DNA of 64,000 nucleotides from Bacteroidales bacterium (GTDB lineage: Bacteria > Bacteroidota > Bacteroidia > Bacteroidales > JAIPAH01). The notes below the pieces were generated by a model. The model saw nothing but the letters and a program-made list of their open reading frames with translations, was not told where the DNA came from and ran no database searches. The position numbers and the translations under genes were made by a program. The stretch is taken from the NCBI GenBank assembly GCA_021738485.1, contig JAIPBX010000002.1:2395-66394 (forward strand), read 5' to 3'. Each line of letters begins with the position of its first letter. Position 1 is the first letter of the stretch. Positions 1 through 41,367 of the stretch are shown one piece after another.

Positions 1-1023
1 AGTATTATCATTTCTTTCGCCACCTCCTTAAAACTACCCCTGTCTACCACTTATGTCACTTTTATGGTAGCAATGGGCACTTCGCTGTCTGACAAAGCCT
101 GGGGGCGCGAAAGTGCTGTGTACAGAATTTCAGGGGTCATAACAGTCATCGGGGGCTGGTTCTTTACCGCTGTGATAGCTTTTACTGCCGCTTTTATTTT
201 TGCCATGATTATCAGCTTTGGTGACATGATTGCCATTGTCCTGCTGATTGCTGTGGCTATCTTTTTTATCATCAAAACTCATGCGCTGCATAAAAAGCGA
301 GAAACAGAGAAAGAAGAACGCGAAAAGCAAAGAGAATACGACTCAAGGCTTTCCAATCGCCAGAATATCCTCATTCAATGCAGCAGAACAATTCTCGGAA
401 CACTCTCCAGCATCTCCAAAATCTACCAGGATATTATTGAACATGTTTCCAACGAAGACCGGCAAAATCTGAAAGCTACCGGCCGCGAAATGGATACGCT
501 GCGTAAGAGTGCCAAAGAACAAAAAGAGAATTTGTACTTTACCGTAAACAAGCTGGAAGAACACGATATTGACAGCGGACATAATTATGTGCAGGTAGTG
601 GATTATCTCAGGGAGCTTACGCGTTCTATTCGTACAATTTACGATCAAAGCTTTACTCATGTGGATAACAATCATAAAACCTTCACCAAAGAGCAGAGGG
701 AAGAGCTAACGAATCTCGCTAATAAATTGTCCGATTATCTCTTTGAGATATCATCAAATATCAAAAACCATGACCACGGCGACCTGGATGTGGCCAGTGA
801 TAAGAATGAGGAGCTGATAGAGCTGGTCGAATCTATGCGTAAATACCAAATAAAGCGTATTAAAAAGCAGAATGACAGTACCAAGCGAAGTATGCTTTAC
901 CTGTCTATCTTATTTGAAACCAAAAATATTCTCAAAGATACCTGGCATATCCTGAAAATCCAGCAGCGGTTCATACAGAGCGTTGATTATTATAAGGAAC
1001 TGGCGAATAATCATAATTATTAA
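1..1023 (+). CDS. PiT-family inorganic phosphate transporter, C-terminal part (5' end lies off the window) with a long cytoplasmic helical tail
   Basis: Frame 1 is open from base 1 (SIIISFATSLKLPLSTTYVTFMVAMGTSL), matching the PiT signature around P-x-STT-x...G. TM helices follow, then a charged helical region of about 240 aa. Stop at 1021-1023. Confidence 0.6.
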   Translation, partial: SIIISFATSLKLPLSTTYVTFMVAMGTSLSDKAWGRESAVYRISGVITVIGGWFFTAVIAFTAAFIFAMIISFGDMIAIVLLIAVAIFFIIKTHALHKKRETEKEEREKQREYDSRLSNRQNILIQCSRTILGTLSSISKIYQDIIEHVSNEDRQNLKATGREMDTLRKSAKEQKENLYFTVNKLEEHDIDSGHNYVQVVDYLRELTRSIRTIYDQSFTHVDNNHKTFTKEQREELTNLANKLSDYLFEISSNIKNHDHGDLDVASDKNEELIELVESMRKYQIKRIKKQNDSTKRSMLYLSILFETKNILKDTWHILKIQQRFIQSVDYYKELANNHNY

Positions 1024-1028
1024 GGCAT

Positions 1029-2669
1029 TTATTTTTCATACACCTTAGCACCGCCGGAAAAGGTCTGTAATACTTCTGTGCCCGGAATCCGTTCCTCGTT
1101 CACTTTCATGATATCGCGGTCCAGTACAACAAAATCCGCTTTTTTGCCAGGTTCTATGCTTCCTTTTTCCTTTTCTTCAAAGCTTCCCTTCGCTGCCCAT
1201 AGGGTTATAGAACGAAGCGCATTTTTACGGCTAAGGGCGTTCTCCATTTGAAATCCATCTTCAGGATGCCCTTGCAAATTTTTTCTGACCACCGAAGTGT
1301 AAAATGTGTATACCGGGTTAATACCTTCTATGGGAAAATCGGTTCCATTCACCAGCCATCCGTTTTGTTTCATAAGCTCTTTAAGCGCATAGGCTCCCTG
1401 CATTCGCTTTTGGCCAATACGAGCGGGGGCCCATCCCATATCAGAGGTAGCATGCGTGGCTTGCATGGAAGGGATAATATTGTATTTCCCGAATTTATCG
1501 AAATCCTCCGGATGAACGATTTGGGCATGTTCGATACGCCAGCGGCGATCATTATCAGGCTTTAGATATTGGCTGTACTCATTGAGAAGAAATCGCACCG
1601 CCGAGTCACCAATGGCGTGGGTATTCACCTGGTAATTGTTGTTGTAAGCCAATTCAAACATATCACAATAGAAATCCGGTTTATTAACCAAAAGTCCATA
1701 GTTATCCGGGTCGTCTTCATAAGGCTCTAAAAGGCAAGCTCCCCTGGATCCCAAAGCTCCATCCGCATAGAGCTTTATCGAATGGATATGGAGCCGGGTG
1801 GTTTTGTAATGGCCTTTCTTCACGTACGCCTCAATATTCTCCTCGTTGGGGGTAAGCATCACATCCATGCGCATTTTGAGGTCACCGCCTTTTTGGAGGG
1901 AATCAATCACGTCTATCACAGGTTTTTCCAGTCCTGCATCCACCACCGAAGTGAGCCCCACGCTAAAACAATCGTTCTGAGCAGTAAGCAAAGCTTCTTC
2001 TTTTTCAGCCCTTTGCGGAGCGGGAATTTGATCCCGGAGACGATCGGCCGTTCCTTCGAGGAAAACACCGGTAAGTTTGCCGTCGTTGTAGATCGCTTCA
2101 TCTTTTGGAATATCACTTTCAGCCAGCTCCGCCCTTGCTATGGCTTCTTCATTAGCCACCACCGCATGTCCGTCTACCCTTGTCAGAACAACGGGGGTAT
2201 TCGGATACTGTTTATTCAGCTCCCGGTTGGTGGGGAAATCTTTAACGGGCCATTCATTCTGGTCCCACCCCCGACCCAAAAGCCATTCTGCCGGGTTATT
2301 TTTATGATGTTTCTGCAGAATATTCAATATCTCTTCGAAGGAGGAAGTACCTGTCAGATCGGCGTATCGCATTTTATTCACGCCATAGTGATAAAAATGA
2401 CAATGGCCGTCGATAAAGCCAGGATATACGGGTTTTCCTTCCATATCGATCACTTTGCCGGCGTGGTATCTTTGCTCTATCTCTTCATTTTTCCCGACTT
2501 CTATAAATCTGCCATCCTTGACGGCAAAGCTACTCTGGACAGAAAACCCGGCATCCACAGTATATATTCTGGCATTTTTTACAATTAAATCTGCTTTTTC
2601 CATTTTTTGACAAGATGTCGTTAATACAAAAACTACAAATAAGACATATAGCGGGTTCAATTTTTTCAT
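1029..2669 (-). CDS. Amidohydrolase-family (YtcJ-like, Amidohydro_3) metal-dependent hydrolase, lipoprotein
   Basis: 546-aa ORF. Lipoprotein-type signal (MKKLNPLYVLFVVFVLTTSC). GFIDGHCHF metal-binding His-x-His motif, later HAIGD and DGALGSRGA motifs typical of the family. Starts 11 nt after the upstream gene's stop. Confidence 0.8.
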   Translation of the reverse strand: MKKLNPLYVLFVVFVLTTSCQKMEKADLIVKNARIYTVDAGFSVQSSFAVKDGRFIEVGKNEEIEQRYHAGKVIDMEGKPVYPGFIDGHCHFYHYGVNKMRYADLTGTSSFEEILNILQKHHKNNPAEWLLGRGWDQNEWPVKDFPTNRELNKQYPNTPVVLTRVDGHAVVANEEAIARAELAESDIPKDEAIYNDGKLTGVFLEGTADRLRDQIPAPQRAEKEEALLTAQNDCFSVGLTSVVDAGLEKPVIDVIDSLQKGGDLKMRMDVMLTPNEENIEAYVKKGHYKTTRLHIHSIKLYADGALGSRGACLLEPYEDDPDNYGLLVNKPDFYCDMFELAYNNNYQVNTHAIGDSAVRFLLNEYSQYLKPDNDRRWRIEHAQIVHPEDFDKFGKYNIIPSMQATHATSDMGWAPARIGQKRMQGAYALKELMKQNGWLVNGTDFPIEGINPVYTFYTSVVRKNLQGHPEDGFQMENALSRKNALRSITLWAAKGSFEEKEKGSIEPGKKADFVVLDRDIMKVNEERIPGTEVLQTFSGGAKVYEK

Positions 2670-2680
2670 AGTATGAATAT

Positions 2681-4414
2681 TTAATTCATTACAATTACTT
2701 TTTTGTAAATATTTTTTCCGCTATCTGCAAGTGATAGTTGAACGATATAAATACCCCTCTCCCATTCTTTTGCGTCTAGTGAGTGTGTTTCTTTTTCAGG
2801 ATCAGGGTTTTCATTTTCAAAAATCAGTTTGCCACTTGAAGCTGAAAATACCCGTATGCTATCAACACGGGCTTCTCCTGTTTTAATGTGTAGAATATGC
2901 CTGACAGGATTAGGAAGTACCTTGAGAGAAGTTGTTTCTTCCTGCGGGGTTCCAATATTCCCTCTTATGCTGATATCCGTAACCTTCGGGAGATGGTCTG
3001 AAGCTTTACGGGTATCTTCAGCTACCAGGCCATACATATCAAGTCTTTGTTGTGACATGTTACCGGTTTCAAGAATAAAACTCTTTAGCACCTCACTTGA
3101 ACTGTTTGTCATAATCGAAAAATCAAGGCGGCCAGGCCAGTAGGAGCTTTCGTTATCCATCCAGGTCAAAGCATAAGGATTGTCGGAGTGGTATGAAATC
3201 ACATCTTTCAAAGCCGTGCCGTCCCAATCGGGGGCACCGCCTTCCCCAAAGGTAGAAGTGTTTATGATTTCACCGGTCAGCAGTGTTTCTAATTGCTGGG
3301 AGTCGCCAACAAGGTTCAGGTCGCCGGCAAGCATGATAGGCGTATCCTCCGGCAGTTCGATTCTTCCTCCCGTTTCCTTAGCTTCGTTAACAAATTCGAT
3401 AAAGGCATCGGCTTCCCGCTGACGGGCTTCATTTGCATCACAACAGCGAAAATGGGCGCCGGTTATCAGGAAATCATGCATAAAACGCTTATCAGGTAAA
3501 TCGATAAGTGCACCCGTCAGGCGCATATCATTATGAACATGCCAGCTATCACTGATGTCATATCGGGTGGTAATGATATTACCCTGATCCTTTTTTACAG
3601 CACTCCATCCCTCTTCATTGTCAAGGGGCAGGGCCTCATCCATAAATGATTCTACATCTGTAGCCTGTGTATCCCAGCATTCATTAAAAACAATCACATC
3701 CGGATTGATAGCCTGTAAAACACTTTCAATATGAGGTTGCTGAGCGGGTTTCATAATTCCGTCATGCAGAATATTGTAAGACATAACCCGCAGGTGGTTT
3801 TGCTCGGGCCGGCTAATATCAATGGGGTTAAAAGTATTGGTTAATTCGTCATCTATATGATAAGTAAAGGTCTCGCCCGCATTAGGAATAGCATCTTCGC
3901 CATTGTCACTTTTGAGTAAAAGGTTGAAATTGGCCCCTTCGAAAAGATCATCTGTTCCGTTGGGCTGGGCATCTCTCGAAATCATTACCTCAAATTCATC
4001 GGAGGCTACTGTCGGAAGGGCGCTAAAACCAATGTCATTGTGATAAATACGCTCTTTTGATTCGTTGTAATATCCATACCGGCTACCGAATTTCCAGCTC
4101 AATTCGGCTCCCAGATTTTCCACACTATAACCCGTCGAGGAATTTTGATCCGTATCGAGATAAAGTGTGAGGTCGTTGCCGCTATTTAAAAGCATTTCCT
4201 CTTCAAGGGTAAAATTGATATAGATATTGTTTTCGTCGTTGGTGACTTTCAGCGCTAACAATTCAATAGCTCCGCCGTCCTGCCGGGAGTCATCGATTTC
4301 TTCATAGTGTCTGTTCCAATCATCCGTTATTCCGTCAAAAAATATTGTATTCTCTTGTGCGAAACCTATTGCAGCCGAAGCTGCAAACAAAATGAGTAAA
4401 AATTTTTTTATCAT
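2681..4414 (-). CDS. Secreted endonuclease/exonuclease/phosphatase (EEP) family protein with N-terminal beta-sandwich-like region and T9SS C-terminal sorting domain
   Basis: Signal peptide. EEP motifs (VMSYNILHDG, VIVFNECW, LAGDLNLVGD, SDHLPKV). C-terminal LKVLPNPVRHILHIK...YIVQL...KKVIV resembles Por_Secre_tail. Its ATG overlaps the stop of the upstream ABC ATPase (ATGA at 4411-4414). Confidence 0.8.
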   Translation of the reverse strand: MIKKFLLILFAASAAIGFAQENTIFFDGITDDWNRHYEEIDDSRQDGGAIELLALKVTNDENNIYINFTLEEEMLLNSGNDLTLYLDTDQNSSTGYSVENLGAELSWKFGSRYGYYNESKERIYHNDIGFSALPTVASDEFEVMISRDAQPNGTDDLFEGANFNLLLKSDNGEDAIPNAGETFTYHIDDELTNTFNPIDISRPEQNHLRVMSYNILHDGIMKPAQQPHIESVLQAINPDVIVFNECWDTQATDVESFMDEALPLDNEEGWSAVKKDQGNIITTRYDISDSWHVHNDMRLTGALIDLPDKRFMHDFLITGAHFRCCDANEARQREADAFIEFVNEAKETGGRIELPEDTPIMLAGDLNLVGDSQQLETLLTGEIINTSTFGEGGAPDWDGTALKDVISYHSDNPYALTWMDNESSYWPGRLDFSIMTNSSSEVLKSFILETGNMSQQRLDMYGLVAEDTRKASDHLPKVTDISIRGNIGTPQEETTSLKVLPNPVRHILHIKTGEARVDSIRVFSASSGKLIFENENPDPEKETHSLDAKEWERGIYIVQLSLADSGKNIYKKVIVMN

Positions 4415-32136: not shown

Positions 32137-33327
32137 ATGGAGACACTTGCGATTATTTTCTGGGTTCTTTTGCTATTGGTCTTCTATAGCTATCTGGGCT
32201 ATGCTCTTGTTTTGTTTATCCTGGTGCGTCTGAAGCGCATGCTGAAAACACAAAAATCTTCCTATAGGGATATAGAATATGAACCCGAGGTAACCCTGTT
32301 TGTGGCTGCCTATAATGAGAAAGACTACCTCGACCGAAAAGTGAAGAATGGCTTTGAGCTGAATTATCCGAATGAAAAAATCAGGCAGGTGTGGGTGACC
32401 GACGGTTCTGACGATGGCACACCGGAGCTTCTAAGGCAATATGATGGCGTAGAAGTATACCACAAGGATGAGCGTGCCGGGAAAATTGCTGCCATGAACC
32501 GGGGTATGCAGTTTGTGGAAAGCCCGATTGTTATTTTTTCGGATGGAAATACTATTCTTGGAAAGGATTCGATAAGGGAAATTGTGAATTTGTTTAAAAA
32601 TCCCAAAGTGGGCTGTGTATCGGGTGAGAAACGTATTTTCACCAAGGAAGCCGATGGGGCTAGCAGTGCCGGAGAAGGAATTTACTGGAAATACGAATCC
32701 ACGCTAAAGAAATGGGATTTTGAACTTTATTCGGTGGTAGGTGCCGCCGGTGAACTGTTTGCGATACGGCGGGAACTGTTCGAAGAAGTGGAGCGTGATA
32801 CCCTGCTGGATGATTTTATTATATCTCTGCGGGTAGCCCAAAAGGGTTATCGTATTGGATATAACCCCAACGCCTATGCCATTGAAAGTGCTTCGGCCAA
32901 TGTCAGGGAAGAACTGAAACGGAAAGTGCGGATTGCAGCAGGCGGGTTTCAGTCGATCGTTAGACTGAAATCTCTGTTAAATCCATTGAAATACAAAACG
33001 CTAACCTTTCAGTATATTAGCCATCGCGTCTTGCGCTGGACGGTGGCTCCTTTTTCGCTGCCTGTGATTTTTATTCTGAATGGTATCCTGGCCTGGCACC
33101 AGGGGTTTTTTACCCTGCAGCTTTATCCGGTGCTGTTTGGATTGCAAATACTCTTCTACCTGGCAGCTTTAGTGGGATGGTTCCTGGAGGAGAAGCAGCT
33201 ACGGATAAAGGTGCTTTTTGTGCCCTATTATTTTTTAATTATGAATTATTCTGTTTATCTTGGTTTTTTACGATATCTAAAAGGAGGTCAAACGGTAAAA
33301 TGGGAAAGAGCCATACGAGGACAATAA
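32137..33327 (+). CDS. Membrane-embedded GT2 glycosyltransferase (synthase-like, degenerate QxxRW)
   Basis: N-terminal TM, VAAYNEKD, TDGSDDGT, FSDGNT (D-x-D-like), VVGAAGELF, KRKVRIAAGG in place of QxxRW, and C-terminal TM helices. Confidence 0.75.
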   Translation: METLAIIFWVLLLLVFYSYLGYALVLFILVRLKRMLKTQKSSYRDIEYEPEVTLFVAAYNEKDYLDRKVKNGFELNYPNEKIRQVWVTDGSDDGTPELLRQYDGVEVYHKDERAGKIAAMNRGMQFVESPIVIFSDGNTILGKDSIREIVNLFKNPKVGCVSGEKRIFTKEADGASSAGEGIYWKYESTLKKWDFELYSVVGAAGELFAIRRELFEEVERDTLLDDFIISLRVAQKGYRIGYNPNAYAIESASANVREELKRKVRIAAGGFQSIVRLKSLLNPLKYKTLTFQYISHRVLRWTVAPFSLPVIFILNGILAWHQGFFTLQLYPVLFGLQILFYLAALVGWFLEEKQLRIKVLFVPYYFLIMNYSVYLGFLRYLKGGQTVKWERAIRGQ

Positions 33328-34964
33328 CTTTTGTGATAGTTTTAGGTATGATGCTGCTAACCGGACTGGAAAGCCTGGGGCAGTGCGACATCACAATTCC
33401 TTCTGAAACGAATTTGGTTGACGGAAATGATTATGACTTTCAACCCGGGGATGTGATATGCCTGGAAGGTGGAGAAAAACCTTACCTGCTGCTCCGGAAT
33501 ATTGATCCTGAAGGGAACTTTAATCAGCCTGTGACATTTCGTAATCACAACGGGGAAGTGACTTTCGATACGGACCATTACTATGGCATCTCCATTTCGA
33601 ATTGTAACAATATCGTGCTGAGTGGTAATGGAGACGATGATTATACGTATGGAATAAAAATTTTAAGGGTGGCTAACGGAACAGGATTAAGTATAGGCGA
33701 TCTTAGTTCTAAGGTTGAAGTGCGGGGGATTGAAATCAGTAACACCAACTATGCCGGGTTGATATCCAAAACGGACCCGTTCTGCGAAAACGGACAGATC
33801 AAAGGAACACGGGAGGATTTTATCCAGGAGGATATTATTATCCATGATAATTATATCCATCATACCGGTACGGAAGGCATGTACATAGGGAGCTCAAAAT
33901 ATTTGCAGGGTTTTGATGTGGAATGTAATGGCGATACGCAGCATGTACTTCCCCATGTCAACTCGGGAGTGCAAGTGTATGACAATCGCGTTGAATATAC
34001 GGGTTGGGACGGAATACAGGTTTCCTCAGCGGTGGATAATTGTGATATTTATGGGAATGATATTGACCATGACAGCGAAGAGGCCGCTTATAATCAAATG
34101 AGCGGTATGCTCATCGGAACGGCCAGTGTATGTGATTGCTACAACAATAAAATCATCGACGGAAAAGGCGATGGAATGGATATTCTGGGTGCAGGAAATC
34201 AAAAAATCTACAATAATCTGATTGTCAACGCTGGTCAAAGATATGACGGAAGTGGCAATGATAACAAACATGGCATTTATTCCGCTCACCTTTATACTTT
34301 TGACGGGGCCTACATGTATTACTATAATAATACGATTATCAATCCCCGCACCTATGGGATTAGCCATCGAAACGATCAACTGGAGAGCAGCAGGGCATAT
34401 AATAATGTCGTTATCGATCCGGGAGCGTACGAGGATGAAGGGGATGAGGCTTATATTCATCTCTCTTCCGAATCCATTCCGATGGATATGAAAAACAATT
34501 ATTTTGGTCAGAACGTTAATACGGCAGGTTTTGACCAGCCGGAAAATAATAATTTCGACCTACAAGTGAATTCCTCGTTGGTTAATGCCGGACGATCAAT
34601 AGGCGGGATAAATTTTGATATTGAGAACCGAACCCGCCCTCATGCAGGAGGGATGGATATCGGGGCCTATGAATGTCATAAACCGGGCGTGGGAATAGAA
34701 GAATACGACAACAACAGCCAAGTGAAGGTGTTTCCCAACCCGGCGAGAACAAAATTGGCGATTGAAGTTTATTTGCCCCGACCTTCAGATTGTTCTTTGA
34801 CGATCTTTAATGTGATGGGCCAAACCGTATTTTCATCTACCATGCGACAGAAAAAAACAAAACATAAGTGGATGATTCCAGTACCCCAATGGGTTTCAGG
34901 CTCTTACTTTTATCAATTGGAATCATTGAATAAACAGTGGAGAGGAAAATTTTTTAAACATTAA
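33300..34964 (+). CDS. Secreted right-handed parallel beta-helix protein with T9SS C-terminal sorting domain (possible polysaccharide lyase, hydrolase or epimerase)
   Basis: I chose the start at MGKSHTRTITFVIVLGMMLLTG (33300). It has repeated N-x-I/V-x-G/N beta-helix rungs (ISISNCNNIVLSGN, IHDNYIHHTG, VYDNRVEYTG, IYGNDIDH, CYNNKIIDG, IYNNLIVNAG, YYNNTIINP, AYNNVVIDP). The C-terminus VKVFPNPARTKLAIEV...YFYQL is T9SS-like. Confidence 0.7.
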   Translation: MGKSHTRTITFVIVLGMMLLTGLESLGQCDITIPSETNLVDGNDYDFQPGDVICLEGGEKPYLLLRNIDPEGNFNQPVTFRNHNGEVTFDTDHYYGISISNCNNIVLSGNGDDDYTYGIKILRVANGTGLSIGDLSSKVEVRGIEISNTNYAGLISKTDPFCENGQIKGTREDFIQEDIIIHDNYIHHTGTEGMYIGSSKYLQGFDVECNGDTQHVLPHVNSGVQVYDNRVEYTGWDGIQVSSAVDNCDIYGNDIDHDSEEAAYNQMSGMLIGTASVCDCYNNKIIDGKGDGMDILGAGNQKIYNNLIVNAGQRYDGSGNDNKHGIYSAHLYTFDGAYMYYYNNTIINPRTYGISHRNDQLESSRAYNNVVIDPGAYEDEGDEAYIHLSSESIPMDMKNNYFGQNVNTAGFDQPENNNFDLQVNSSLVNAGRSIGGINFDIENRTRPHAGGMDIGAYECHKPGVGIEEYDNNSQVKVFPNPARTKLAIEVYLPRPSDCSLTIFNVMGQTVFSSTMRQKKTKHKWMIPVPQWVSGSYFYQLESLNKQWRGKFFKH

Positions 34965-34968
34965 AATT

Positions 34969-35787
34969 ATGAATATTAAGCCTGTACTAAAACGTGTTAT
35001 CCCTTTCCAGGTAGGTGTTAAACTAAGAGGAGGCTACCAAAAGTTTCTTAAAATAATATACCAGGGCAACAACTATTATTGCCCTTTTTGCGACAATTCG
35101 TTTCGCACGTTCCTGAAAGGAGGATATCCTAATCCGCTGGCGGAAAAGATGGAAATTATCGGTGCCGGGAAGCGTTCTAATATGTTATGCCCCCGATGCT
35201 ATTCGACAGATCGCGATAGGTTAATCTATCTGTATTTGAAAGAAAAGACGGATGTGTTTGATAAGTCTCAAAGAATTCTTCATATTGCCCCGACGGGAAG
35301 TCTGAAACATTTGCTGGAAAATATCCCCCACCTTCAATATGAAACGGGAGATAAATATGAAGAGGGATACAGAGGCTATTATTATGATAGGGACGTAATC
35401 CAGATGGATGTTACAGCACTGCCCTACGATGATGATCAGTTCGATATGGTCATCTGCAATCATGTGCTTGAGCATGTCAAGGAAGATATTGCTGCTATGA
35501 AAGAAATCAGGAGGGTGATGAAAAAACAGGGAAAAGCGATTCTGCAGGTACCTGTGGCAATGGCATTGCCCGAGACGGATGAAGATGACCCGGGAAATGC
35601 TCAGGAAAGGGAAAATAGGTTCGGACAGTTTGATCATGTACGTCTCTATGCCCGCGATTATAATGAACGTATGAAAAAAGCGGGCTTTACCGTGGAAGTA
35701 CATAATCCGGGAAATGACGGATGGGATAAGAAATATAAAAAATTGTCGATTAACCCATTGGAAAATGTATATGTGGGTATAAAATAA
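34969..35787 (+). CDS. Class I SAM-dependent methyltransferase with N-terminal Cys4 zinc-ribbon-like motif
   Basis: YYCPFCDNSF...CPRCYSTDRDR (CxxC...CxxC), then ILHIAPTG and FDMVICNHVLEHV (Methyltransf_11-like). Confidence 0.7.
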   Translation: MNIKPVLKRVIPFQVGVKLRGGYQKFLKIIYQGNNYYCPFCDNSFRTFLKGGYPNPLAEKMEIIGAGKRSNMLCPRCYSTDRDRLIYLYLKEKTDVFDKSQRILHIAPTGSLKHLLENIPHLQYETGDKYEEGYRGYYYDRDVIQMDVTALPYDDDQFDMVICNHVLEHVKEDIAAMKEIRRVMKKQGKAILQVPVAMALPETDEDDPGNAQERENRFGQFDHVRLYARDYNERMKKAGFTVEVHNPGNDGWDKKYKKLSINPLENVYVGIK

Positions 35788-35791
35788 GCTT

Positions 35792-38521
35792 ATGAAGTAT
35801 CGGTGGTTAATTGGTTATCTGCTTACTGCTCTTTTGCTTCTATGTGCCGGTATTATGGCGCGGGGTGCTGCCCTGCCTGATACCGGGACGGACAGTGCAA
35901 TAATGCAGGGGCTCCTGATTCCGGAGGATAACAGAAGTACGCTGTATAATCAACTATCGGTAACACATACAGGTGTTGAGCCTGACAGTGTCGGAAAACA
36001 AGGGGGTAAGGCCTCTCATAAAGCTTTCCGATGGATAGAATCGGGGAATTATTTTTTGCACAGGGGAATGGCGGATTCGGCAGTAACCTTGTATTTGAAA
36101 GCTAAAAATGTGTTTGAGAAGCAGAGTCACGGTCAGGGATTGATGCATAGCTTTAACAACCTGGGAGTTACCTATCATAAATATCAAGCCAGTGACATCG
36201 CTTTAAATCAATTAAAGCAAGCACTTGTCTTGAGTCGAAAGGCTGCCGTGCCTGCTCATGAAAAAGCCACGGTTTTCGCTAACCTGGCCACGGTTCACCA
36301 TTCGAAGAATCAGTCCCGGATAGCTTTTCAATATGTGGATTCGGCCACGCAGGTGATGAGCGGAAACCATACACCTGAAAGGAGGGCTACGGTGTATGCA
36401 AATCTGGCTATGTTTTTTACGTCCGTGGAACGTTTTGACAAGGCCCTGATCTATTTGCAAAAAGCCGGAGATTTGTTGGACCAAAAGGAAAACGGGCGGA
36501 TGAAAGCTTTTGTCTGGAATGATTTGGCCGCTGTGTACCGAAACATCTACAACTATGACAAAGCTTTAAATTACTACCAGAGAGCTTTTGACATTCAAAA
36601 ATCCATAGGAGATACAATTCGAATGGCTTTCCTAAACAACAGTATCGGACAAATCCAGCTTGAACGAAAAGCTTACGAAGAAGCCGGCAAACACTTTTCC
36701 AGGGCTGTGCTCTTAAATAGTAAACTTAGCGATGAGAAGGGAGTGCTGGAAAATATTCAATCCCTCTCCTCCACTCTTTTGAAACAAGGTAAACCTCTAA
36801 AGGCCAGAGATACTTTACACGCGTATCTTCCCCGTGCAGAAGCTTTGGGCGATTACGCCCTGCTCAGCGATTTTCACAGGCTGTTGGGTTTATCTTATAG
36901 CCTGAATAATCAGTATGCGCGGGCGCTGGAACATCAATCGCTTACAAAGACTTATACTGATTCGCTACATGATAAACAGCAGGATTTCCGTACTGAGTTT
37001 TTCACAACCCGGGGAAAGCTCAAACAACGCTGGCACTCCCTGCGCGTTAATAATTTACAGGAGCATCTTGAAAGGCAGGAAGCAGACCGCAGGGTTTCTT
37101 ATCCGGCAATAGGCGGAATAGCTCTTCTGGGAGGAATATTGGTATTTTGGTTGGTTGTTCGGAACAAAAGAATGAAAAAAGGTTTTCAGCAGCAACTCCA
37201 GGAAAAAAATCGGAAAATTAAGGAAACGCAAAAGCAACTGGAGGAATCGTCCACGGATATTGAAGCCAAGGTAAATGAAAGAACGAAAGAGCTTCAGAGA
37301 GAGATGGAGAAGTATAAGAAGAAGGACGTGGACCTGAAAAAGGCACTGAAGGATGCCGAGGAGGCCAATTATCTTAAAAATGCTTTTCTGTCGAATATGA
37401 GTCATGAAATACGGACTCCCCTTAATGGTATTATTGGTTTTTCAAGCCTCCTTGAGACGGAACTGTCGCTCATGGAAAATAAAGAGCTTTATGAATATGC
37501 CCAGGGCATACAAACTTCCGGCGAGCGGTTGCTACATCTGCTTAATAATATCATTGATATCAGCCGTATTGAGGCCAATGATTTGCAGGTTTCACTCCAG
37601 GAGACCAACATTCAGCAAATTATCGAAAAAAGCGCGGATTTGTTTAAGTTTAAGGCCAATGAAAAAGGGCTGAAATTCAATATGAAGCTGGAAGAAACGC
37701 CCATGGTATATGCCGATCCGACAAGTTTATCCAAAGTGGTATCAGATATTATTGATAATGCCGTAAAATATACTGAAAAAGGATTTGTGAATATAACCAG
37801 CGGATATGTTTCTGACAAGATGGAAGTATTTGTCAAAATCCGCGATACAGGGGTGGGGATAGATGAAAATTATCTGCCCCGAGTATTTGAGGCTTTTCGC
37901 CAGGAAAGCCTTGGCTATTCAAGGGCCTACCAGGGAGCAGGTTTGGGCTTGCCTCTTGCCAAAAGGCTCCTGGAACTTATGAATGGGCGGATTGAGCTTA
38001 ATTCTAAAAAAGACCAGGGAACGAATGTGATTATCTATATTCCGACAAAGGAAAAAGCCAGGGATAAGGGCTCTCAGCAACAGCATCCTTCTTCCGGGAA
38101 GAAGCCGGCCCCTGAGCTCATAAAACCGATGAATGAAATCACTATTCTGTTGGTGGAGGATGACCGTATGAACCGGCTGGTGATCAATAAAATGCTGGAG
38201 AATGACTGGAACGTGGTGGCTACAGAAGACGGTGATCAGACACTGGAAGAGGTCGGTAAAGCTCATAAAAAGGGACAGATTTTTGATTTGATGCTCTTTG
38301 ATATCAACTTGCCCAGCCCCTGGGATGGTATACAACTCATGCATCACCTGCGTAAAAAGTACCCCGAATACAAAGAGGTGCCTTTCATTGCCCAGACGGC
38401 ATACGCGATGCGTACGGACAGAAGGCGGCTTTTGGAAGAGGGTTTTGATGAATATATATCCAAGCCAATCAACCAACAGCGTCTTCTGACGATGATTTAT
38501 AATTTTTTAAGCCGGAAATAA
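35792..38521 (+). CDS. Hybrid sensor histidine kinase: signal peptide, TPR-repeat sensor region, one TM, coiled coil, HisKA, HATPase_c, receiver
   Basis: H-box NMSHEIRTPLNGIIGF, N-box VVSDIIDNAVKYT, DTGVGI, GAGLGLPLA. The receiver has LLVEDDRMN, LMLFDINLP and YISKP. Confidence 0.9.
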   Translation: MKYRWLIGYLLTALLLLCAGIMARGAALPDTGTDSAIMQGLLIPEDNRSTLYNQLSVTHTGVEPDSVGKQGGKASHKAFRWIESGNYFLHRGMADSAVTLYLKAKNVFEKQSHGQGLMHSFNNLGVTYHKYQASDIALNQLKQALVLSRKAAVPAHEKATVFANLATVHHSKNQSRIAFQYVDSATQVMSGNHTPERRATVYANLAMFFTSVERFDKALIYLQKAGDLLDQKENGRMKAFVWNDLAAVYRNIYNYDKALNYYQRAFDIQKSIGDTIRMAFLNNSIGQIQLERKAYEEAGKHFSRAVLLNSKLSDEKGVLENIQSLSSTLLKQGKPLKARDTLHAYLPRAEALGDYALLSDFHRLLGLSYSLNNQYARALEHQSLTKTYTDSLHDKQQDFRTEFFTTRGKLKQRWHSLRVNNLQEHLERQEADRRVSYPAIGGIALLGGILVFWLVVRNKRMKKGFQQQLQEKNRKIKETQKQLEESSTDIEAKVNERTKELQREMEKYKKKDVDLKKALKDAEEANYLKNAFLSNMSHEIRTPLNGIIGFSSLLETELSLMENKELYEYAQGIQTSGERLLHLLNNIIDISRIEANDLQVSLQETNIQQIIEKSADLFKFKANEKGLKFNMKLEETPMVYADPTSLSKVVSDIIDNAVKYTEKGFVNITSGYVSDKMEVFVKIRDTGVGIDENYLPRVFEAFRQESLGYSRAYQGAGLGLPLAKRLLELMNGRIELNSKKDQGTNVIIYIPTKEKARDKGSQQQHPSSGKKPAPELIKPMNEITILLVEDDRMNRLVINKMLENDWNVVATEDGDQTLEEVGKAHKKGQIFDLMLFDINLPSPWDGIQLMHHLRKKYPEYKEVPFIAQTAYAMRTDRRRLLEEGFDEYISKPINQQRLLTMIYNFLSRK

Positions 38522-38530
38522 GAGCACCTT

Positions 38531-39745
38531 ATGGGAGAACAAAAGTCGGATAGCCCGGAAAAAAGTCTTAAACAGAAAGAACAGGAAATTGCTGAGCTGG
38601 AAAAACATTTTCTCAGCGAGAAAAACAAGCTTTACCATAGCAATAAAATGGTGTTGCACAACCTTAGTTATGACTTGCGTATACCTATTAATGGTATCAT
38701 TAGCATGCTGGAGATGTTTGATACCAGCACCCTTACGCGTCAACAAAAAGATCAGCTTCGGGCTATCAAGTCTTCTGTAAAGAATTTGTCGCAAACTGTG
38801 GAAGATATGATGACGTTTTCGGCGTTGCTGAGCGATAGAGTGGAAATGAAAGAGGAGGCGTTTGACTTGCCGGCTTTTGTGGAGGAGTTAAAAAATCAGT
38901 TTGAACTTACTGCCAGCGGCAAAAATATTGGATGGAAAATCAGTCGCGAAGATGAGATGCCGCAGCAAGTGATCGGGGATAAGTATCATCTCAGGCAAAT
39001 CCTGGTGAATCTTTTGAGCAATGCCTTCAAAAATACCATCGAAGGAGAGGTGGTGCTTCATTGGCAAAAGCTGAACCAATCCGGGAAAAATATGCAGATA
39101 CGATGGAGTGTTTCGGATACGGGCACAGGCATGAGTCCGGAAAAACAGGAAAATATTCGCCAACATCTGCATCAAACCAAAGATCCGAGTTTTATTATTT
39201 CAGAAGAAGTGGGCCTTGGGCTGGCCCTGGTATACTATCTGTCGCAAAAACTGAATGGTTCGTTCAATTTTGAAAGCGATCCGGCTTCGGGAAGTCGCTT
39301 TTATGTCGATCTCCCTTTGAAAAAGCCAGAAGAAACAACCACTATCGAAAAGCATCCATACCATACGGCAAGCCCTAAACGCATTTTATTGGTGGAGGAT
39401 AACTACCTGAATCAGAAATTTGCTTCCGCAGCACTTCAAAAGGCGGGTCATAAACTGGATATTGCGGAGAATGGGAAAGTTGCCTATCAGAAATACCAAC
39501 AAAACGATTATCACCTGATTCTTATGGATATTGAGTTACCCCTGACCGACGGGATACAGGTCACCAAATCTATTCGCAGAGAAGAAAAGAAATACCATTA
39601 CCACTATACACCCATTATAGCGGTAACAGCCTATGCTATCGAGCATGACCGCACCAAATGCCTTAATGCGGGCATGGATGAGTATCTCACCAAACCGTTC
39701 AGACCGGAAGAGTTATTAGACCTTATAGAACGTATGGTTTCCTGA
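38531..39745 (+). CDS. Soluble hybrid histidine-kinase-like protein with degenerate H-box (Tyr at the phospho-His position) plus a canonical receiver
   Basis: The H-box region is VLHNLSYDLRIPINGIISM, with a TAT codon at 38669-38671 where His is expected. N-box ILVNLLSNAFKNT, DTGTGM and GLGLAL are intact. The receiver has LLVEDNYLN, LILMDIELP and YLTKPF. Confidence 0.8.
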   Translation: MGEQKSDSPEKSLKQKEQEIAELEKHFLSEKNKLYHSNKMVLHNLSYDLRIPINGIISMLEMFDTSTLTRQQKDQLRAIKSSVKNLSQTVEDMMTFSALLSDRVEMKEEAFDLPAFVEELKNQFELTASGKNIGWKISREDEMPQQVIGDKYHLRQILVNLLSNAFKNTIEGEVVLHWQKLNQSGKNMQIRWSVSDTGTGMSPEKQENIRQHLHQTKDPSFIISEEVGLGLALVYYLSQKLNGSFNFESDPASGSRFYVDLPLKKPEETTTIEKHPYHTASPKRILLVEDNYLNQKFASAALQKAGHKLDIAENGKVAYQKYQQNDYHLILMDIELPLTDGIQVTKSIRREEKKYHYHYTPIIAVTAYAIEHDRTKCLNAGMDEYLTKPFRPEELLDLIERMVS

Positions 39746-39785
39746 AACGCGCTTTGCACTGATATTATATTGTGTTCCGCTGGTT

Positions 39786-40331
39786 TTAAGGCCTATCCAG
39801 TTTCAACACATGAATATCATATACCAAAGTGGCTTTGGATGGAATTTCTTTTTTATCGCCGGCCATACCATGGGCCAGATAAGAAGGAATTATCACCTTG
39901 GCTTTATCGCCTTCCTGCAAATGGGGCATAATTTTGTGCAATCCCGAAACCACATCTCCTCCTTTCCCGATAATGAATCTCTTGGGTTTTCCCTTTTCCT
40001 GAGAGGAATAACATACATAGCCATTAAGCAATTGGATCGTGTAGTCAAGTGTTGCCCGCATACCTTTCCGGGCTTTTGTCCCCTGCCCTTCCTGGTATAC
40101 ACTGTAATAGATCCCCGAACCGGTTTTTTTCATATCCCACTTATGGCGTTGGATATAACGGCGGATCATGTACTTCTCCTCTGATATGGCCCGCTTATTG
40201 GCATCGATAAGAGCCTCTTCCAGCTTTTTATCGTTTTGCTGTTTTTTTTGATCGGGGTTTTGCGGACGATTGTTGCATGCGGCAAGCAATAGCATTGCAA
40301 AAAAAATACTTATAGCCCCTCGTAATAACAT
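39786..40331 (-). CDS. FKBP-type peptidyl-prolyl cis-trans isomerase, lipoprotein
   Basis: Lipoprotein signal (LLLAAC). FKBP_C pattern (TLDYTIQLLNGYV...FIIGKGGDVVSGL...GDKAKVIIPSYLAHG...TLVYDIHVLKL). Confidence 0.85.
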   Translation of the reverse strand: MLLRGAISIFFAMLLLAACNNRPQNPDQKKQQNDKKLEEALIDANKRAISEEKYMIRRYIQRHKWDMKKTGSGIYYSVYQEGQGTKARKGMRATLDYTIQLLNGYVCYSSQEKGKPKRFIIGKGGDVVSGLHKIMPHLQEGDKAKVIIPSYLAHGMAGDKKEIPSKATLVYDIHVLKLDRP

Positions 40332-40338
40332 AATTCCC

Positions 40339-41367
40339 TTATTCTTCTTTGATTGAAGTTAACTGTTCTTTGTATTGAGGTAATAACGATTCAAATTTCT
40401 TTATCGTATCCGAAAGACTCAGGTAGGAATTGGCCCCGGCTGCCTTTTCGTGTCCCCCTCCGTCAAAATGGTTGCGGGCAAACTGATTGACGGAAAAGCT
40501 TTCCTTGGAACGCATGGAGAGCCGTACGACACCCTGGTTCTCTTTCATGAGCACCGAGAAGTTTATCCCTTTAATAGAAAGTCCGTAATTGACGAGCCCT
40601 TCAGTATCGCCATCCTGGTAGTTAAAGTATTCCATATCCTTTCGGGTGAGATAAATGTAGGCTGTGGCGTATTCGTGGAATACTTTCATGCGATTGCTAA
40701 GGCTGTAGCCCAGTAAGCGTAGCCGGGATTCCGAATAGGTATCATAAATATTCCGGCTAATCTTTTCAGCATCAATGCCCAGGTGTATCAACCGCGCTAC
40801 GGTTTCGAAGAGTTCCGGTCGATTGACAGAATAGCTGAAAGCACCCGTATCGGTAACAATGCCGGCATACAAAGCAGTGGCTGCTGATTTATTAAATGTG
40901 TTTATGGACTCCAGAGAGCGACACAGCGTGTAGATAATTTCGGCCGTACTGGAAAACTCAGGCCAGGAATATATCAGATCAAATGCTTCTTTGTCGGGCT
41001 CGGGATGGTGATCAACCATCACTTTACGGGCTTTTGCCTTTTTTAGTTTCTTCTCCATCTGTTCGGTGCGGCTGAAATCATTGAAATCGAGCGCAAAGAT
41101 GAGATCGGCCCCGGCGATATATTTATCGGCGGTGGAGGCATGCTTTTCATATATCATAACATCATCGCTGCCTGGCAACCATTTTAAAAAGGAAGGGTAA
41201 TCGTCGGGAACGATTAAGTGAATATTGGCTCCCGTAACCCGAAGGAAATGATAAAGTCCCAGCATTGATCCGATAGCATCGCCATCGGGATGCCGGTGGG
41301 AGGTGATAACTACCTTCCCGGATTGCTGTATCCACTTTTTTAGTTTTTCAAGATTGTTAATATTCAA
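40339..41367 (-). CDS. DHH/DHHA1 phosphoesterase (NrnA-like oligoribonuclease / pAp phosphatase)
   Basis: HRHPDGDAIGS, VDHHP (DHH motif), GGGHEKAAGA (DHHA1). Confidence 0.85.
   Translation of the reverse strand: MNINNLEKLKKWIQQSGKVVITSHRHPDGDAIGSMLGLYHFLRVTGANIHLIVPDDYPSFLKWLPGSDDVMIYEKHASTADKYIAGADLIFALDFNDFSRTEQMEKKLKKAKARKVMVDHHPEPDKEAFDLIYSWPEFSSTAEIIYTLCRSLESINTFNKSAATALYAGIVTDTGAFSYSVNRPELFETVARLIHLGIDAEKISRNIYDTYSESRLRLLGYSLSNRMKVFHEYATAYIYLTRKDMEYFNYQDGDTEGLVNYGLSIKGINFSVLMKENQGVVRLSMRSKESFSVNQFARNHFDGGGHEKAAGANSYLSLSDTIKKFESLLPQYKEQLTSIKEE

What the first reader, a model, noticed from the sequence alone, without database searches (positions are those of the whole stretch)
38531..39745. 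Hybrid kinase-like protein whose H-box histidine is replaced by tyrosine
The DHp H-box reads NLSYDLRIPINGI, against NMSHEIRTPLNGI in the kinase immediately upstream. A single TAT codon (38669-38671) occupies the position of the expected CAT/CAC. The ATP-binding boxes (N, G1 DTGTGM, G2 GLGLAL) and the receiver Asp (LILMDIELP) look intact. The protein has no TM helix or sensor domain and starts 9 nt after the upstream hybrid kinase. It may act as a pseudokinase partner, for example through heterodimerisation or trans-phosphorylation, or as a phosphate sink or phosphatase. Alternatively it may use the nearby His three residues upstream (VLHNLSY).
Basis: seen in the sequence. Interest (0 to 1): 0.62.

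Follow-up and report, generated by a model that had tools for sequence, protein, structure and literature searches.

The report
Histidine-less partner kinase beside sensor kinase
A small soluble kinase-like protein encoded just after a membrane sensor kinase really has tyrosine where the phosphate-accepting histidine should be, but its relatives show it is a degenerate "pseudokinase" with a working receiver domain, which is a recognised class rather than a new principle.

Summary
ORF 38531-39745 encodes a 404-aa DHp-CA-receiver protein ("HK2") with no TM helix or sensor. Codon TAT 38669-38671 (Tyr47) sits at the H-box histidine position. HK2 starts 9 nt after a canonical TPR hybrid kinase ("HK1").

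It is not a sequencing error, because two other assemblies (79-80% identical) also carry Tyr. It is not tyrosine-specific either. Positional orthologues in the same genus carry His, Gln or Gly, and one congener has lost the gene.

The whole genus clade has also lost:
- the phosphatase Thr/Asn at H+4
- the F-box
- the RKYGGT part of the ATP lid

It keeps the N-box Asn, G1 and GLGL, and every catalytic receiver residue.

HK2's DHp is 24-31% identical across the genus, against 91-99% for HK1's DHp. HK2 is still under purifying selection (dN/dS 0.09-0.18).

The HK1-HK2 pair closes a Bacteroidota cassette found in all 21 loci examined: GT2, beta-helix, methyltransferase, HK1, HK2. In two related loci HK1 has lost its His instead, and no pair has lost both.

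Best reading: HK2 is a pseudokinase whose receiver is fed by HK1. It resembles RetS, DivL and PsmA. Interest is moderate.

The parts
32137..33327 (+). GT2 glycosyltransferase, first gene of the conserved cassette
   Evidence: ORF. GT2 homologues (64-79% identity) occupy the same position upstream of the kinase pair in L024, L026, L028, L030, L031 and L032. GT2 Pfam families are called at that position in L111-L114 and L116.
33177..34964 (+). Beta-helix protein with a Por/T9SS secretion tail (start codon uncertain)
   Evidence: ORF. Homologues with Beta_helix plus Por_Secre_tail sit in the same position in other lineages.
34969..35787 (+). Class I SAM methyltransferase directly upstream of HK1
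   Evidence: ORF. A methyltransferase (45-56% identity) precedes HK1 in every cassette locus whose upstream DNA is held.
35792..38521 (+). HK1: signal/TM, TPR array, TM, then a canonical hybrid histidine kinase (909 aa)
   Evidence: Pfam finds TPR_12, HisKA (69.4 bits), HATPase_c (84 bits) and Response_reg. Hydrophobic windows lie near residues 3-25 and about 438-458. Its DHp is 91-99% identical across the genus.
37403..37405 (+). HK1 phospho-acceptor His538 (CAT) in NMSHEIRTP
38300..38302 (+). HK1 receiver Asp837 (LMLFDINLP)
38522..38530 (+). 9-nt spacer between the HK1 stop (TAA) and the HK2 ATG
   Evidence: No promoter-like or terminator-like site was listed in the spacer between the two genes, and site counts in the region are near those of shuffled sequence. 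In congeners the two genes abut or overlap by 1 nt.
38531..39745 (+). HK2: soluble 404-aa DHp-CA-receiver protein with a histidine-less H-box
   Evidence: The AlphaFold2 model has mean pLDDT 85.1. The best structural matches are ShkA, GacS, RetS and DivL.
38555..38719 (+). Long N-terminal helix (residues 9-63). It starts as a coiled-coil-like stalk and continues into DHp helix alpha-1.
   Evidence: DSSP on the model
38651..38824 (+). DHp (HisKA) domain, residues 41-98
   Evidence: PF00512 scores 37.7 bits against a cut-off of 26.9. For the more distant orthologues P0004-P0018, no HisKA hit is on record.
38657..38659 (+). His43 (CAC), one helical turn N-terminal of Tyr47. It is a candidate alternative acceptor.
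   Evidence: His at -4 is present in the Y and G lineages and in part of the Q lineage. It is Gln in the H lineage and in P0011/P0017.
38669..38671 (+). Tyr47 (TAT) at the phospho-acceptor position
   Evidence: Orthologue codons are TAT (L002), CAT (L003, L004) and CAG (L005, L006).
38681..38683 (+). Ile51 (ATA) at H+4, where HisKA kinases carry the Thr/Asn needed for phosphatase activity
   Evidence: The role of this residue is from PMC3510030.
38975..39322 (+). CA (HATPase_c) domain, residues 149-264
   Evidence: PF02518 scores 64.8 bits.
39020..39022 (+). N-box Asn164, invariant
39116..39130 (+). G1 box D196-T-G-T-G200, invariant DxGxG
39176..39238 (+). Degenerate F-box and ATP lid / G2 region (residues 216-236, TKDPSFIISEEVGLGLALVYY)
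   Evidence: Canonical relatives read IDSSTTRKYGGTGLGLAISKH in the same alignment columns.
39383..39727 (+). Receiver domain, residues 285-399. E289, D290, D333, T366 and K388 are all intact.
   Evidence: PF00072 scores 93.2 bits. Invariant and near-invariant columns are listed. It is 68-88% identical across the genus and dN/dS is 0.02-0.07.
39527..39529 (+). Receiver phospho-acceptor Asp333 (GAT) in LILMDIELP
39786..40331 (-). Convergent FKBP-type isomerase gene. It marks the conserved downstream border.
40339..41367 (-). DHH/DHHA1 phosphoesterase gene, a conserved downstream neighbour

Best explanation
HK2 is a degenerate hybrid histidine kinase, that is, a pseudo-histidine kinase. Its DHp-CA module no longer autophosphorylates or dephosphorylates in the canonical way. 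Its receiver domain remains a working phospho-acceptor.

**Proposed mechanism (inferred, not shown)**
1. The membrane TPR sensor HK1 autophosphorylates on His538.
2. HK1 passes the phosphoryl group to its own receiver (Asp837) and to the HK2 receiver (Asp333).
3. HK2 therefore acts as a second receiver branch, or as a phosphate sink or modulator, of the HK1 pathway.
4. The retained dimeric DHp-CA body of HK2 serves as a scaffold or effector surface.

**Origin of the tyrosine**
Tyr47 arose by a single CAT-to-TAT transition. This happened after the kinase core had already been disabled in the ancestor of the genus. It is one of several interchangeable replacements (Tyr, Gln, Gly), not a tyrosine-specific adaptation.

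**Likely role**
The pair probably controls the adjacent polysaccharide-type cassette (GT2, beta-helix, methyltransferase).
For: **Shown here**
1. Tyr at the acceptor position is real and fixed in three distinct sequences.
2. Positional orthologues share the same gene order: methyltransferase (and, where more upstream DNA is held, GT2 and beta-helix), then HK1, then HK2; in the window's genus and in L027/L114 convergent FKBP and DHH genes follow. They carry Y, H, Q or G at this site. A maximum-likelihood tree gives the genus clade 100/100 support, and parsimony requires three losses inside it. Gln and Glu occur in other lineages.
3. The syntenic orthologue in another family (L007) is fully canonical (SHEIRTP, F-box, RKYGGTGLGL). 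The degeneration is therefore derived.
4. The whole genus clade lacks Thr/Asn at H+4, the F-box and the RKYGGT lid.
5. HK2's DHp is 24-31% identical across the genus, against 91-99% for HK1's DHp. The receivers of both are about 70% identical.
6. dN/dS is 0.09-0.18 for HK2's DHp+CA and 0.02-0.07 for its receiver. The gene is maintained, and the receiver most strongly.
7. All receiver catalytic residues are invariant.
8. One congener (G003) has cleanly lost HK2 while keeping HK1, as expected for an accessory partner.
9. The closest solved structures include the pseudokinases RetS and DivL.

**From the literature**
- The acidic residue at H+1 is needed for kinase activity and Thr/Asn at H+4 for phosphatase activity (PMC3510030).
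- RetS, DivL and PsmA are precedents (PMC8498467, PMC4211667, PMC12963549).
Against: - No biochemical data exist, and phosphotransfer from HK1 to HK2 Asp333 is inferred only.
- The N-box Asn, G1 DxGxG and GLGL of G2 are invariant even in the His-less lineages. This suggests that nucleotide binding is still selected, which a pure scaffold would not need.
- A His-bearing subclade (P0004-P0008, P0015) has kept His across considerable divergence. Some acceptor function may therefore persist there.
- No pair has lost His in both partners. That also fits a heteromeric kinase.
- No HPt or output domain is encoded in the cassette. The output of the phosphorylated receiver is unknown.
Confidence: 0.6

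Rival explanations
1. Division-of-labour heteromer. HK1 and HK2 form a mixed DHp dimer or a higher complex. HK2's CA domain still binds ATP and phosphorylates HK1 His538 in trans. Only one acceptor His per pair is then needed. This would resemble FasB/FasC or a split kinase.
For: - The N-box, G1 and GLGL are invariant in His-less HK2s.
- In L030 and L112 it is HK1 that lost its His (Ser) while keeping N, G1 and G2, and HK2 is canonical. This His-less HK1 is under purifying selection (dN 0.15, dS saturated).
- No pair among 21 loci lacks His in both partners.
- The genes are 9 nt apart or overlapping.
- Precedents exist in FasB/FasC (PMC12675982) and in GacS trans-autophosphorylation (PMC8498467).
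Against: - HK2's F-box and half of its ATP lid/G2 are lost.
- HK2's DHp diverges to 24-31% identity while HK1's DHp is nearly invariant. A shared four-helix bundle would be expected to constrain both.
- A congener has dispensed with HK2 altogether.
- Independent loss events are few, so the 'never both' pattern is not statistically strong.
Confidence: 0.2
2. Register-shifted acceptor. His43 lies one helical turn above Tyr47 on the same face of alpha-1. It has taken over as the phosphorylatable or relay histidine, so the DHp would act like an HPt/ChpT-type relay.
For: - His at -4 is present in the Y, G and most Q lineages and is Gln where position 0 is His. As a result, 18 of 20 rows of the genus clade carry exactly one His at the two positions.
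- Canonical relatives have Ala, Ser or Thr at -4.
Against: - The positional orthologue P0017 (and its close relative P0011) has Gln at both positions.
- The other His-less lineages (P0020 type, P0031) have Arg at -4.
- His43 is followed by Asn, not by the acidic residue required for autophosphorylation (PMC3510030).
- Few independent lineages are available.
Confidence: 0.08
3. Tyr47 is itself phosphorylated, so HK2 is a tyrosine-autophosphorylating kinase, as DivL's 'tyrosine kinase' name (PDB 4q20 title; original claim recalled from memory) implies.
For: Tyr occupies exactly the acceptor position. G1 and the N-box are intact.
Against: - Tyr is confined to one shallow clade, and sister orthologues have Gln, Gly or His.
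- Even for DivL, kinase activity is not needed and no autophosphorylation was observed (PMC4211667).
- The ATP lid is degenerate.
Confidence: 0.03
4. Artefact: a sequencing or assembly error, or a decaying pseudogene.
For: The genome is a fragmented MAG (156 contigs, 78% complete). Reads could not be inspected.
Against: - The same TAT codon is present in a different species' assembly, and Tyr in a third.
- The frame is open throughout.
- dN/dS is 0.16 against the closest orthologue, at dS of about 0.7.
Confidence: 0.02

Closest known systems
RetS of Pseudomonas aeruginosa (PDB 6DK7, 6DK8, 7N0E)
   Same: - It is a hybrid kinase-like protein whose HK region does not act as an autokinase.
- It modulates a bona fide partner kinase (GacS), and its receiver siphons phosphate (PMC8498467).
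- It is among the best sequence and fold matches.
- Its ATP lid region is similarly degenerate in the alignment.
   Different: - RetS keeps the H-box His but has lost ATP binding, and its G1 is degenerate.
- RetS has a 7TM/periplasmic sensor and two receivers.
- Its gene is not adjacent to the partner's.
- HK2 has lost the His, keeps G1 and the N-box, is soluble, and sits 9 nt downstream of HK1, with no separate promoter or terminator signal found.
DivL of Caulobacter crescentus (PDB 4Q20)
   Same: - Tyr replaces the phospho-acceptor His in a HisKA-type DHp.
- The HK fold is retained.
- It acts without kinase or phosphatase activity, as a sensor of a phosphorylated receiver (PMC4211667).
- It is a structural match.
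   Different: - DivL's Tyr is conserved across alphaproteobacterial orthologues, and all H, N, G1, F and G2 boxes are retained. Here Tyr is one of several replacements, and the F-box, lid and H+4 Thr are lost.
- DivL has PAS domains and no fused receiver.
PsmA of Streptomyces venezuelae
   Same: It is a hybrid-kinase-like pseudokinase that lacks the H-box His and the E/DxxT/N phosphatase motif and has a fused receiver (PMC12963549).
   Different: - PsmA has PAS domains and binds DivIVA.
- Its receiver Asp is dispensable, and it lacks key ATP-binding residues.
- HK2's receiver is its most conserved part, and its N-box and G1 are intact.
FasB/FasC of group A Streptococcus, and split or complementary tandem kinases
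   Same: These are adjacent kinase genes whose products heterodimerise and divide the acceptor-His and kinase-domain functions between them (PMC12675982).
   Different: - They are not hybrid kinases and they feed a DNA-binding regulator.
- Which half is dispensable differs from the case here.
- No interaction data exist for HK1 and HK2.
EspA/EspC hybrid kinase pair of Myxococcus xanthus (from memory; NCBIfam NF052574 hit far below cut-off)
   Same: There are two hybrid kinases. One kinase phosphorylates the receiver of the other, whose own kinase region is inactive.
   Different: - It belongs to a different phylum and has different sensor domains.
- It is not linked to a GT2-methyltransferase cassette.
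- The similarity is only at the generic domain level (72.9 bits against a cut-off of 1200).

Membership tests
HisKA-family (class I) histidine kinase | DHp domain matching the HisKA profile | tested here: met
   PF00512 scores 37.7 bits against a cut-off of 26.9, over residues 41-98.
HisKA-family (class I) histidine kinase | Phosphorylatable His in the H-box | tested here: not met
   Tyr47 (TAT 38669-38671) aligns with the His of 104 of 120 relatives.
HisKA-family (class I) histidine kinase | Acidic residue at H+1 (needed for kinase activity) | tested here: met
   Asp48 is conserved in the whole genus clade.
HisKA-family (class I) histidine kinase | Thr/Asn at H+4 (needed for phosphatase activity) | tested here: not met
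   The residue is Ile51 here, and Ile or Met in all genus orthologues. The requirement is from PMC3510030.
HisKA-family (class I) histidine kinase | CA domain with N, G1, F and G2 boxes | tested here: inconclusive
   N164 and D196xGxG200 are invariant. The F-box phenylalanines are absent. G2 is reduced from GGTGLGL to EEVGLGL. Nucleotide binding was not tested.
HisKA-family (class I) histidine kinase | ATP-dependent autophosphorylation | not testable with these tools
   This needs a biochemical assay.
Hybrid histidine kinase (fused receiver) | C-terminal receiver with the acidic pair, phospho-Asp, Thr and Lys | tested here: met
   PF00072 scores 93.2 bits. E289, D290, D333, T366 and K388 are invariant or nearly so.
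Pseudo-histidine kinases (DivL, RetS, PsmA class) | HK fold retained while an essential catalytic element is missing | tested here: met
   The AF2 model has pLDDT 85 and top matches to ShkA, GacS, RetS and DivL. The His, H+4 Thr, F-box and lid are lost.
Pseudo-histidine kinases (DivL, RetS, PsmA class) | Maintained by selection (not a decaying gene) | tested here: met
   dN/dS is 0.09-0.18 for DHp+CA in three orthologue pairs.
Pseudo-histidine kinases (DivL, RetS, PsmA class) | Demonstrated lack of autokinase activity | not testable with these tools
   This needs a biochemical assay.
DivL orthologue group | Tyr conserved at the acceptor site across orthologues; PAS domains; no receiver | tested here: not met
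   Orthologues carry Y, H, Q or G. No PAS domain is present and a receiver is fused.
HK-like histidine phosphotransferases (ChpT / Spo0B type) | DHp-like bundle with a relay His and a CA-like domain without ATP binding | tested here: inconclusive
   There is no His at the canonical position. His43 at -4 is a possible substitute but is absent from orthologues P0011/P0017. N and G1 are retained, unlike a dead CA domain.

The most novel reading that the evidence does not exclude
HK1 and HK2 are an obligate two-kinase unit that closes a widespread Bacteroidota polysaccharide cassette (GT2, beta-helix, methyltransferase). In this unit a single acceptor histidine is enough. Different lineages have therefore disabled different partners: HK2 became Y, Q, G or E, and HK1 became S. 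The His-less partner would keep its ATP site to phosphorylate the other in trans. The two receivers, with no HPt or DNA-binding output, would regulate the synthase machinery directly at the protein level.
Probability: 0.18. Interest if true: 0.62.

Novelty: new member of a known kind. Interest (0 to 1): 0.4.

Why it matters
Pseudo-histidine kinases are a recognised but still thinly characterised class.

This case offers a compact natural series within one genus. Positional orthologues of the same gene carry His, Tyr, Gln, Gly, or no gene at all. All sit next to an almost invariant partner kinase, and a fully canonical orthologue exists in a neighbouring family.

That makes it a convenient system for two questions:
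- In what order does a kinase core decay?
- What keeps the remnant under selection?

It also flags a five-gene cassette, found in all 21 loci examined, as a likely regulated polysaccharide module in uncultured Bacteroidales: GT2, beta-helix, methyltransferase and two hybrid kinases.

It does not reveal a new signalling principle.

Tried and rejected
- **Profile search of 1.84 billion representatives with the HK2 alignment**. The top 150 hits were large multi-domain hybrid kinases with summed multi-stretch scores. This was useless for sampling HK2 orthologues.
- **The search for related loci in genome contigs**. The receiver-derived patterns hit hybrid kinases of many phyla. Only L031 and L032 carried the cassette.
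- **Promoter and terminator scan of 34800-40400**. Counts were near those of shuffled sequence and nothing was found between HK1 and HK2. This is uninformative for Bacteroidota promoters.
Side-chain exposure of H43 and Y47, and receiver-DHp docking, could not be measured.
- **An in-frame read-through fusion of HK1 and HK2 as a surrogate complex prediction** was considered and not run. A forced fusion would pack the two DHp hairpins together regardless of the biology.
- **Rejected readings:** tyrosine-specific function (orthologues vary), canonical phosphatase (H+4 Thr/Asn lost), and sequencing error or pseudogene (conserved codon, low dN/dS).
Full report
**1. The observation**

The window carries an open frame at 38531-39745 (+) encoding 404 residues. 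The sequence shows TAT at 38669-38671, which is codon 47, within NLS-Y-DLRIPINGI. Pfam places three domains in the protein, all above the curated cut-offs:
- HisKA at residues 41-98 (37.7 bits)
- HATPase_c at 149-264 (64.8 bits)
- Response_reg at 285-399 (93.2 bits)

The gene upstream (35792-38521, here HK1) has this layout: signal or TM segment, TPR array, TM helix, HisKA, HATPase_c, receiver. Its H-box is canonical (NMSHEIRTP, His538 = CAT 37403-37405). It stops at TAA, 9 nt before the ATG of the 404-aa protein (here HK2). HK2 has no hydrophobic segment, and only three more codons are open upstream, so it has no sensor or membrane part.

An HMM built from the DHp region of 120 relatives was run over all open frames of the genome. 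It found 28 H-boxes with His, one with Tyr (HK2) and one with Thr.

Two details need correction:
- The neighbouring histidine is His43, four residues upstream.
- The ATP boxes are only partly intact (see section 3).

**2. The Tyr is real but not conserved as Tyr**

A search of 5.8 billion clustered proteins found two close relatives (79-80% identity), both with NLSYDLRIP. One of them is the orthologue in a congeneric genome (G005, locus L002), and its codon is also TAT. Even so, three independent assemblies make a sequencing error very unlikely.

The next relatives (41-47% identity) come from other species of the same genus. They are positional orthologues. In L002-L006 the gene lies between the HK1 orthologue and convergent FKBP and DHH genes. 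Their acceptor residue is:

| Genome / locus | Residue | Codon |
|---|---|---|
| G006, G007 | His | CAT |
| G002, G004 | Gln | CAG |
| P0018 | Gly | not read |
| P0017 | Gln | not read |

The contexts of P0018 and P0017 show the same neighbourhood (GT2, beta-helix, methyltransferase, TPR hybrid kinase, then this gene). They are therefore orthologues too.

A maximum-likelihood tree gives the genus clade 100/100 support with the topology (Y, (G, (Q, H))). With canonical His outgroups, parsimony requires three independent losses of His inside the genus. Outside it, a Gln lineage (P0020 type) and a Glu sequence (P0031) add one or two more.

In one congener (G003) the gene is cleanly absent. There the HK1 orthologue is followed, after 23 nt, by the convergent FKBP and DHH genes.

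**3. The whole kinase core is degenerate, not just the His**

The syntenic orthologue in another family of the order (G030, L007) is fully canonical. It has SHEIRTP, the F-box (KLFKAFSQ) and the lid TTRKYGGTGLGLAI.

In every member of the window's genus clade, three elements have changed:
- Thr at H+4 has become Ile or Met (Ile51 here).
- The F-box phenylalanines are gone.
- The lid reads xxISE[ED][VI]GLGL.

According to Willett and Kirby (PMC3510030), the acidic residue at H+1 is needed for kinase activity and Thr/Asn at H+4 for phosphatase activity. HK2 keeps Asp48 but lacks both the His and the Thr/Asn. Neither canonical reaction is expected at this site.

On the other hand, N164 (N-box), D196-x-G-x-G200 (G1) and G228-x-G230-L (the end of G2) are invariant across all 35 aligned sequences, including the His-less ones. 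Nucleotide binding therefore cannot be excluded.

The AlphaFold2 model is confident (mean pLDDT 85.1). It shows a long helix (residues 9-63) that runs from an N-terminal stalk into DHp alpha-1. The best structural matches are ShkA, GacS, RetS and DivL. RetS is also among the best sequence matches.

**4. What is conserved**

Identity to the window protein across the genus, by domain:

| Protein | DHp | CA | Receiver |
|---|---|---|---|
| HK2 | 24-31% | 37-44% | 68-73% |
| HK1 | 91-95% | 74-76% | 68-70% |

In HK1 the DHp is the most conserved domain, whereas in HK2 it is the least conserved.

Nei-Gojobori dN/dS was computed for three close orthologue pairs. It is 0.09-0.18 for HK2's DHp+CA and 0.02-0.07 for its receiver. 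The protein is under purifying selection throughout, and the receiver most strongly. The receiver keeps E289, D290, D333, T366 and K388.

**5. The pair belongs to a conserved cassette, and either partner can lose the His**

Contexts were retrieved for eleven HK2-family proteins from different lineages, and the genome-contig scan added two more cassette loci (L031, L032). Wherever the contig or locus reaches far enough upstream, they show the order GT2, beta-helix/T9SS-tail protein (missing in L028/L029/L032), methyltransferase, HK1, HK2. HK1 is either long (TPR plus TM) or short (about 470 aa). HK2 is always 400-440 aa. No HPt or DNA-binding regulator is encoded in the cassette. Elsewhere the genome has one hybrid protein with an HPt domain and two small HPt proteins.

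H-box states of the 21 loci read, written as HK1 | HK2:

| State (HK1 \| HK2) | Loci |
|---|---|
| H \| Y | 2 |
| H \| H | 9 |
| H \| Q | 5 |
| H \| G | 1 |
| H \| E | 1 |
| S \| H | 2 |

The S | H loci are L030 and L112. An extra HK1 paralogue in L027 carries Gln. The Ser-bearing HK1 keeps N, G1 and G2 and is under purifying selection (77% identity between L030 and L112, dN 0.15, dS saturated). No pair lacks His in both partners. The number of independent events is small, so this pattern is suggestive rather than proven.

**6. Interpretation**

The most economical reading is as follows. The ancestral cassette had two active hybrid kinases. In the ancestor of this genus, HK2's kinase and phosphatase chemistry was disabled (lid, F-box, H+4). 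After that, the acceptor codon was free to change: CAT to TAT here, CAT to CAG elsewhere, to Gly in another lineage, and the whole gene was lost in one species.

What selection still maintains is, above all, the receiver. The almost invariant DHp of HK1 is the obvious phosphodonor for it. HK2 would then be a second receiver branch, or a sink or modulator, of HK1, carried on a dimeric pseudokinase body.

This works like RetS, whose receiver siphons phosphate and whose HK region modulates GacS (PMC8498467). It also resembles the pseudokinases DivL (PMC4211667) and PsmA (PMC12963549). These steps are inferred, not shown. I give this reading a confidence of 0.6.

**7. Rivals**

- **(a) Division-of-labour heteromer (0.2).** HK2's CA would phosphorylate HK1's His in trans, as proposed for FasB/FasC (PMC12675982). 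The invariant N/G1/GLGL, the reciprocal loss in L030/L112 and the tight gene coupling support this. The degenerate lid, the very fast-evolving HK2 DHp next to an invariant HK1 DHp, and the loss of HK2 in G003 argue against it.
- **(b) His43 as a register-shifted acceptor (0.08).** Of the 20 rows in the genus clade, 18 have exactly one His at positions -4 and 0. However, the positional orthologue P0017 (and its close relative P0011) has Gln at both. Other His-less lineages have Arg at -4, and His43 lacks an adjacent acidic residue.
- **(c) Phosphorylation of Tyr47 (0.03).** Tyr is confined to one shallow clade.
- **(d) Artefact (0.02).** The codon is conserved between species and dN/dS is low.

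**8. Comparison with known systems and novelty**

HK2 passes the profile tests for HisKA, HATPase_c and receiver. It fails two defining catalytic features of HisKA kinases: the acceptor His and the H+4 Thr/Asn. It should therefore not be filed as a histidine kinase, but as a pseudo-histidine kinase with an intact receiver.

It is not a DivL orthologue. Its Tyr is not conserved, it has no PAS domains, and it has a fused receiver.

Earlier notes of this scan list several other pseudo-histidine kinases, including tandem complementary pairs. This agrees with the class being recognised.

The new elements here are the within-genus series of acceptor-site states in positional orthologues, the reciprocal loss in HK1 elsewhere, and the linkage to the same GT2/beta-helix/methyltransferase cassette in the loci examined. 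I rate it a new member of a known kind, with interest 0.4.

Noticed in passing
L030:4581-5996 and L112:4582-5997 (HK1 of the P0095/P0075 lineage): Here the upstream kinase HK1 has lost its acceptor His (FLSNVS-S-EIRTP) while keeping N, G1 and G2. HK2 is fully canonical. This is the mirror image of the window's situation. The Ser form is maintained by selection (dN 0.15, dS saturated).
   Followed up: partly
L117 (G003:C5), 917-4095: A congener has cleanly lost the HK2 gene. HK1 (867 aa, His intact) is followed after 23 nt by the convergent FKBP and DHH genes.
   Followed up: yes
L027:631-3258: This lineage has three tandem kinases. An extra TPR hybrid kinase paralogue upstream of HK1 carries Gln at the acceptor position (FLANMS-Q-EIRTP).
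   Followed up: no
window 32137-39745 and loci L024, L026-L032, L111-L116: A five-gene cassette recurs with the same order in all Bacteroidota lineages examined where enough upstream DNA is held: GT2 synthase-like enzyme, beta-helix protein with a T9SS tail, SAM methyltransferase, HK1, HK2. No HPt or DNA-binding regulator lies inside it.
   Followed up: partly
own genome, contig C7:688-2838 (+), outside the window: A second kinase-like protein of this genome (717-aa open frame) has a non-His H-box (LIDYLS-T-DIREPFNA).
   Followed up: no
window 35792-39745: HK1 and HK2 are in the same reading frame, separated only by TAA plus 9 nt. The same is true in L024 but not in L003 or L026, so it is probably a coincidence rather than a read-through design.
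   Followed up: partly
G000:C66:21347-21921 (loci L022, L023), outside the window: Two small stand-alone HPt-domain open frames (130 and 155 aa) lie side by side. They are the only free HPt candidates that could relay phosphate from the many hybrid kinases of this genome.
   Followed up: no
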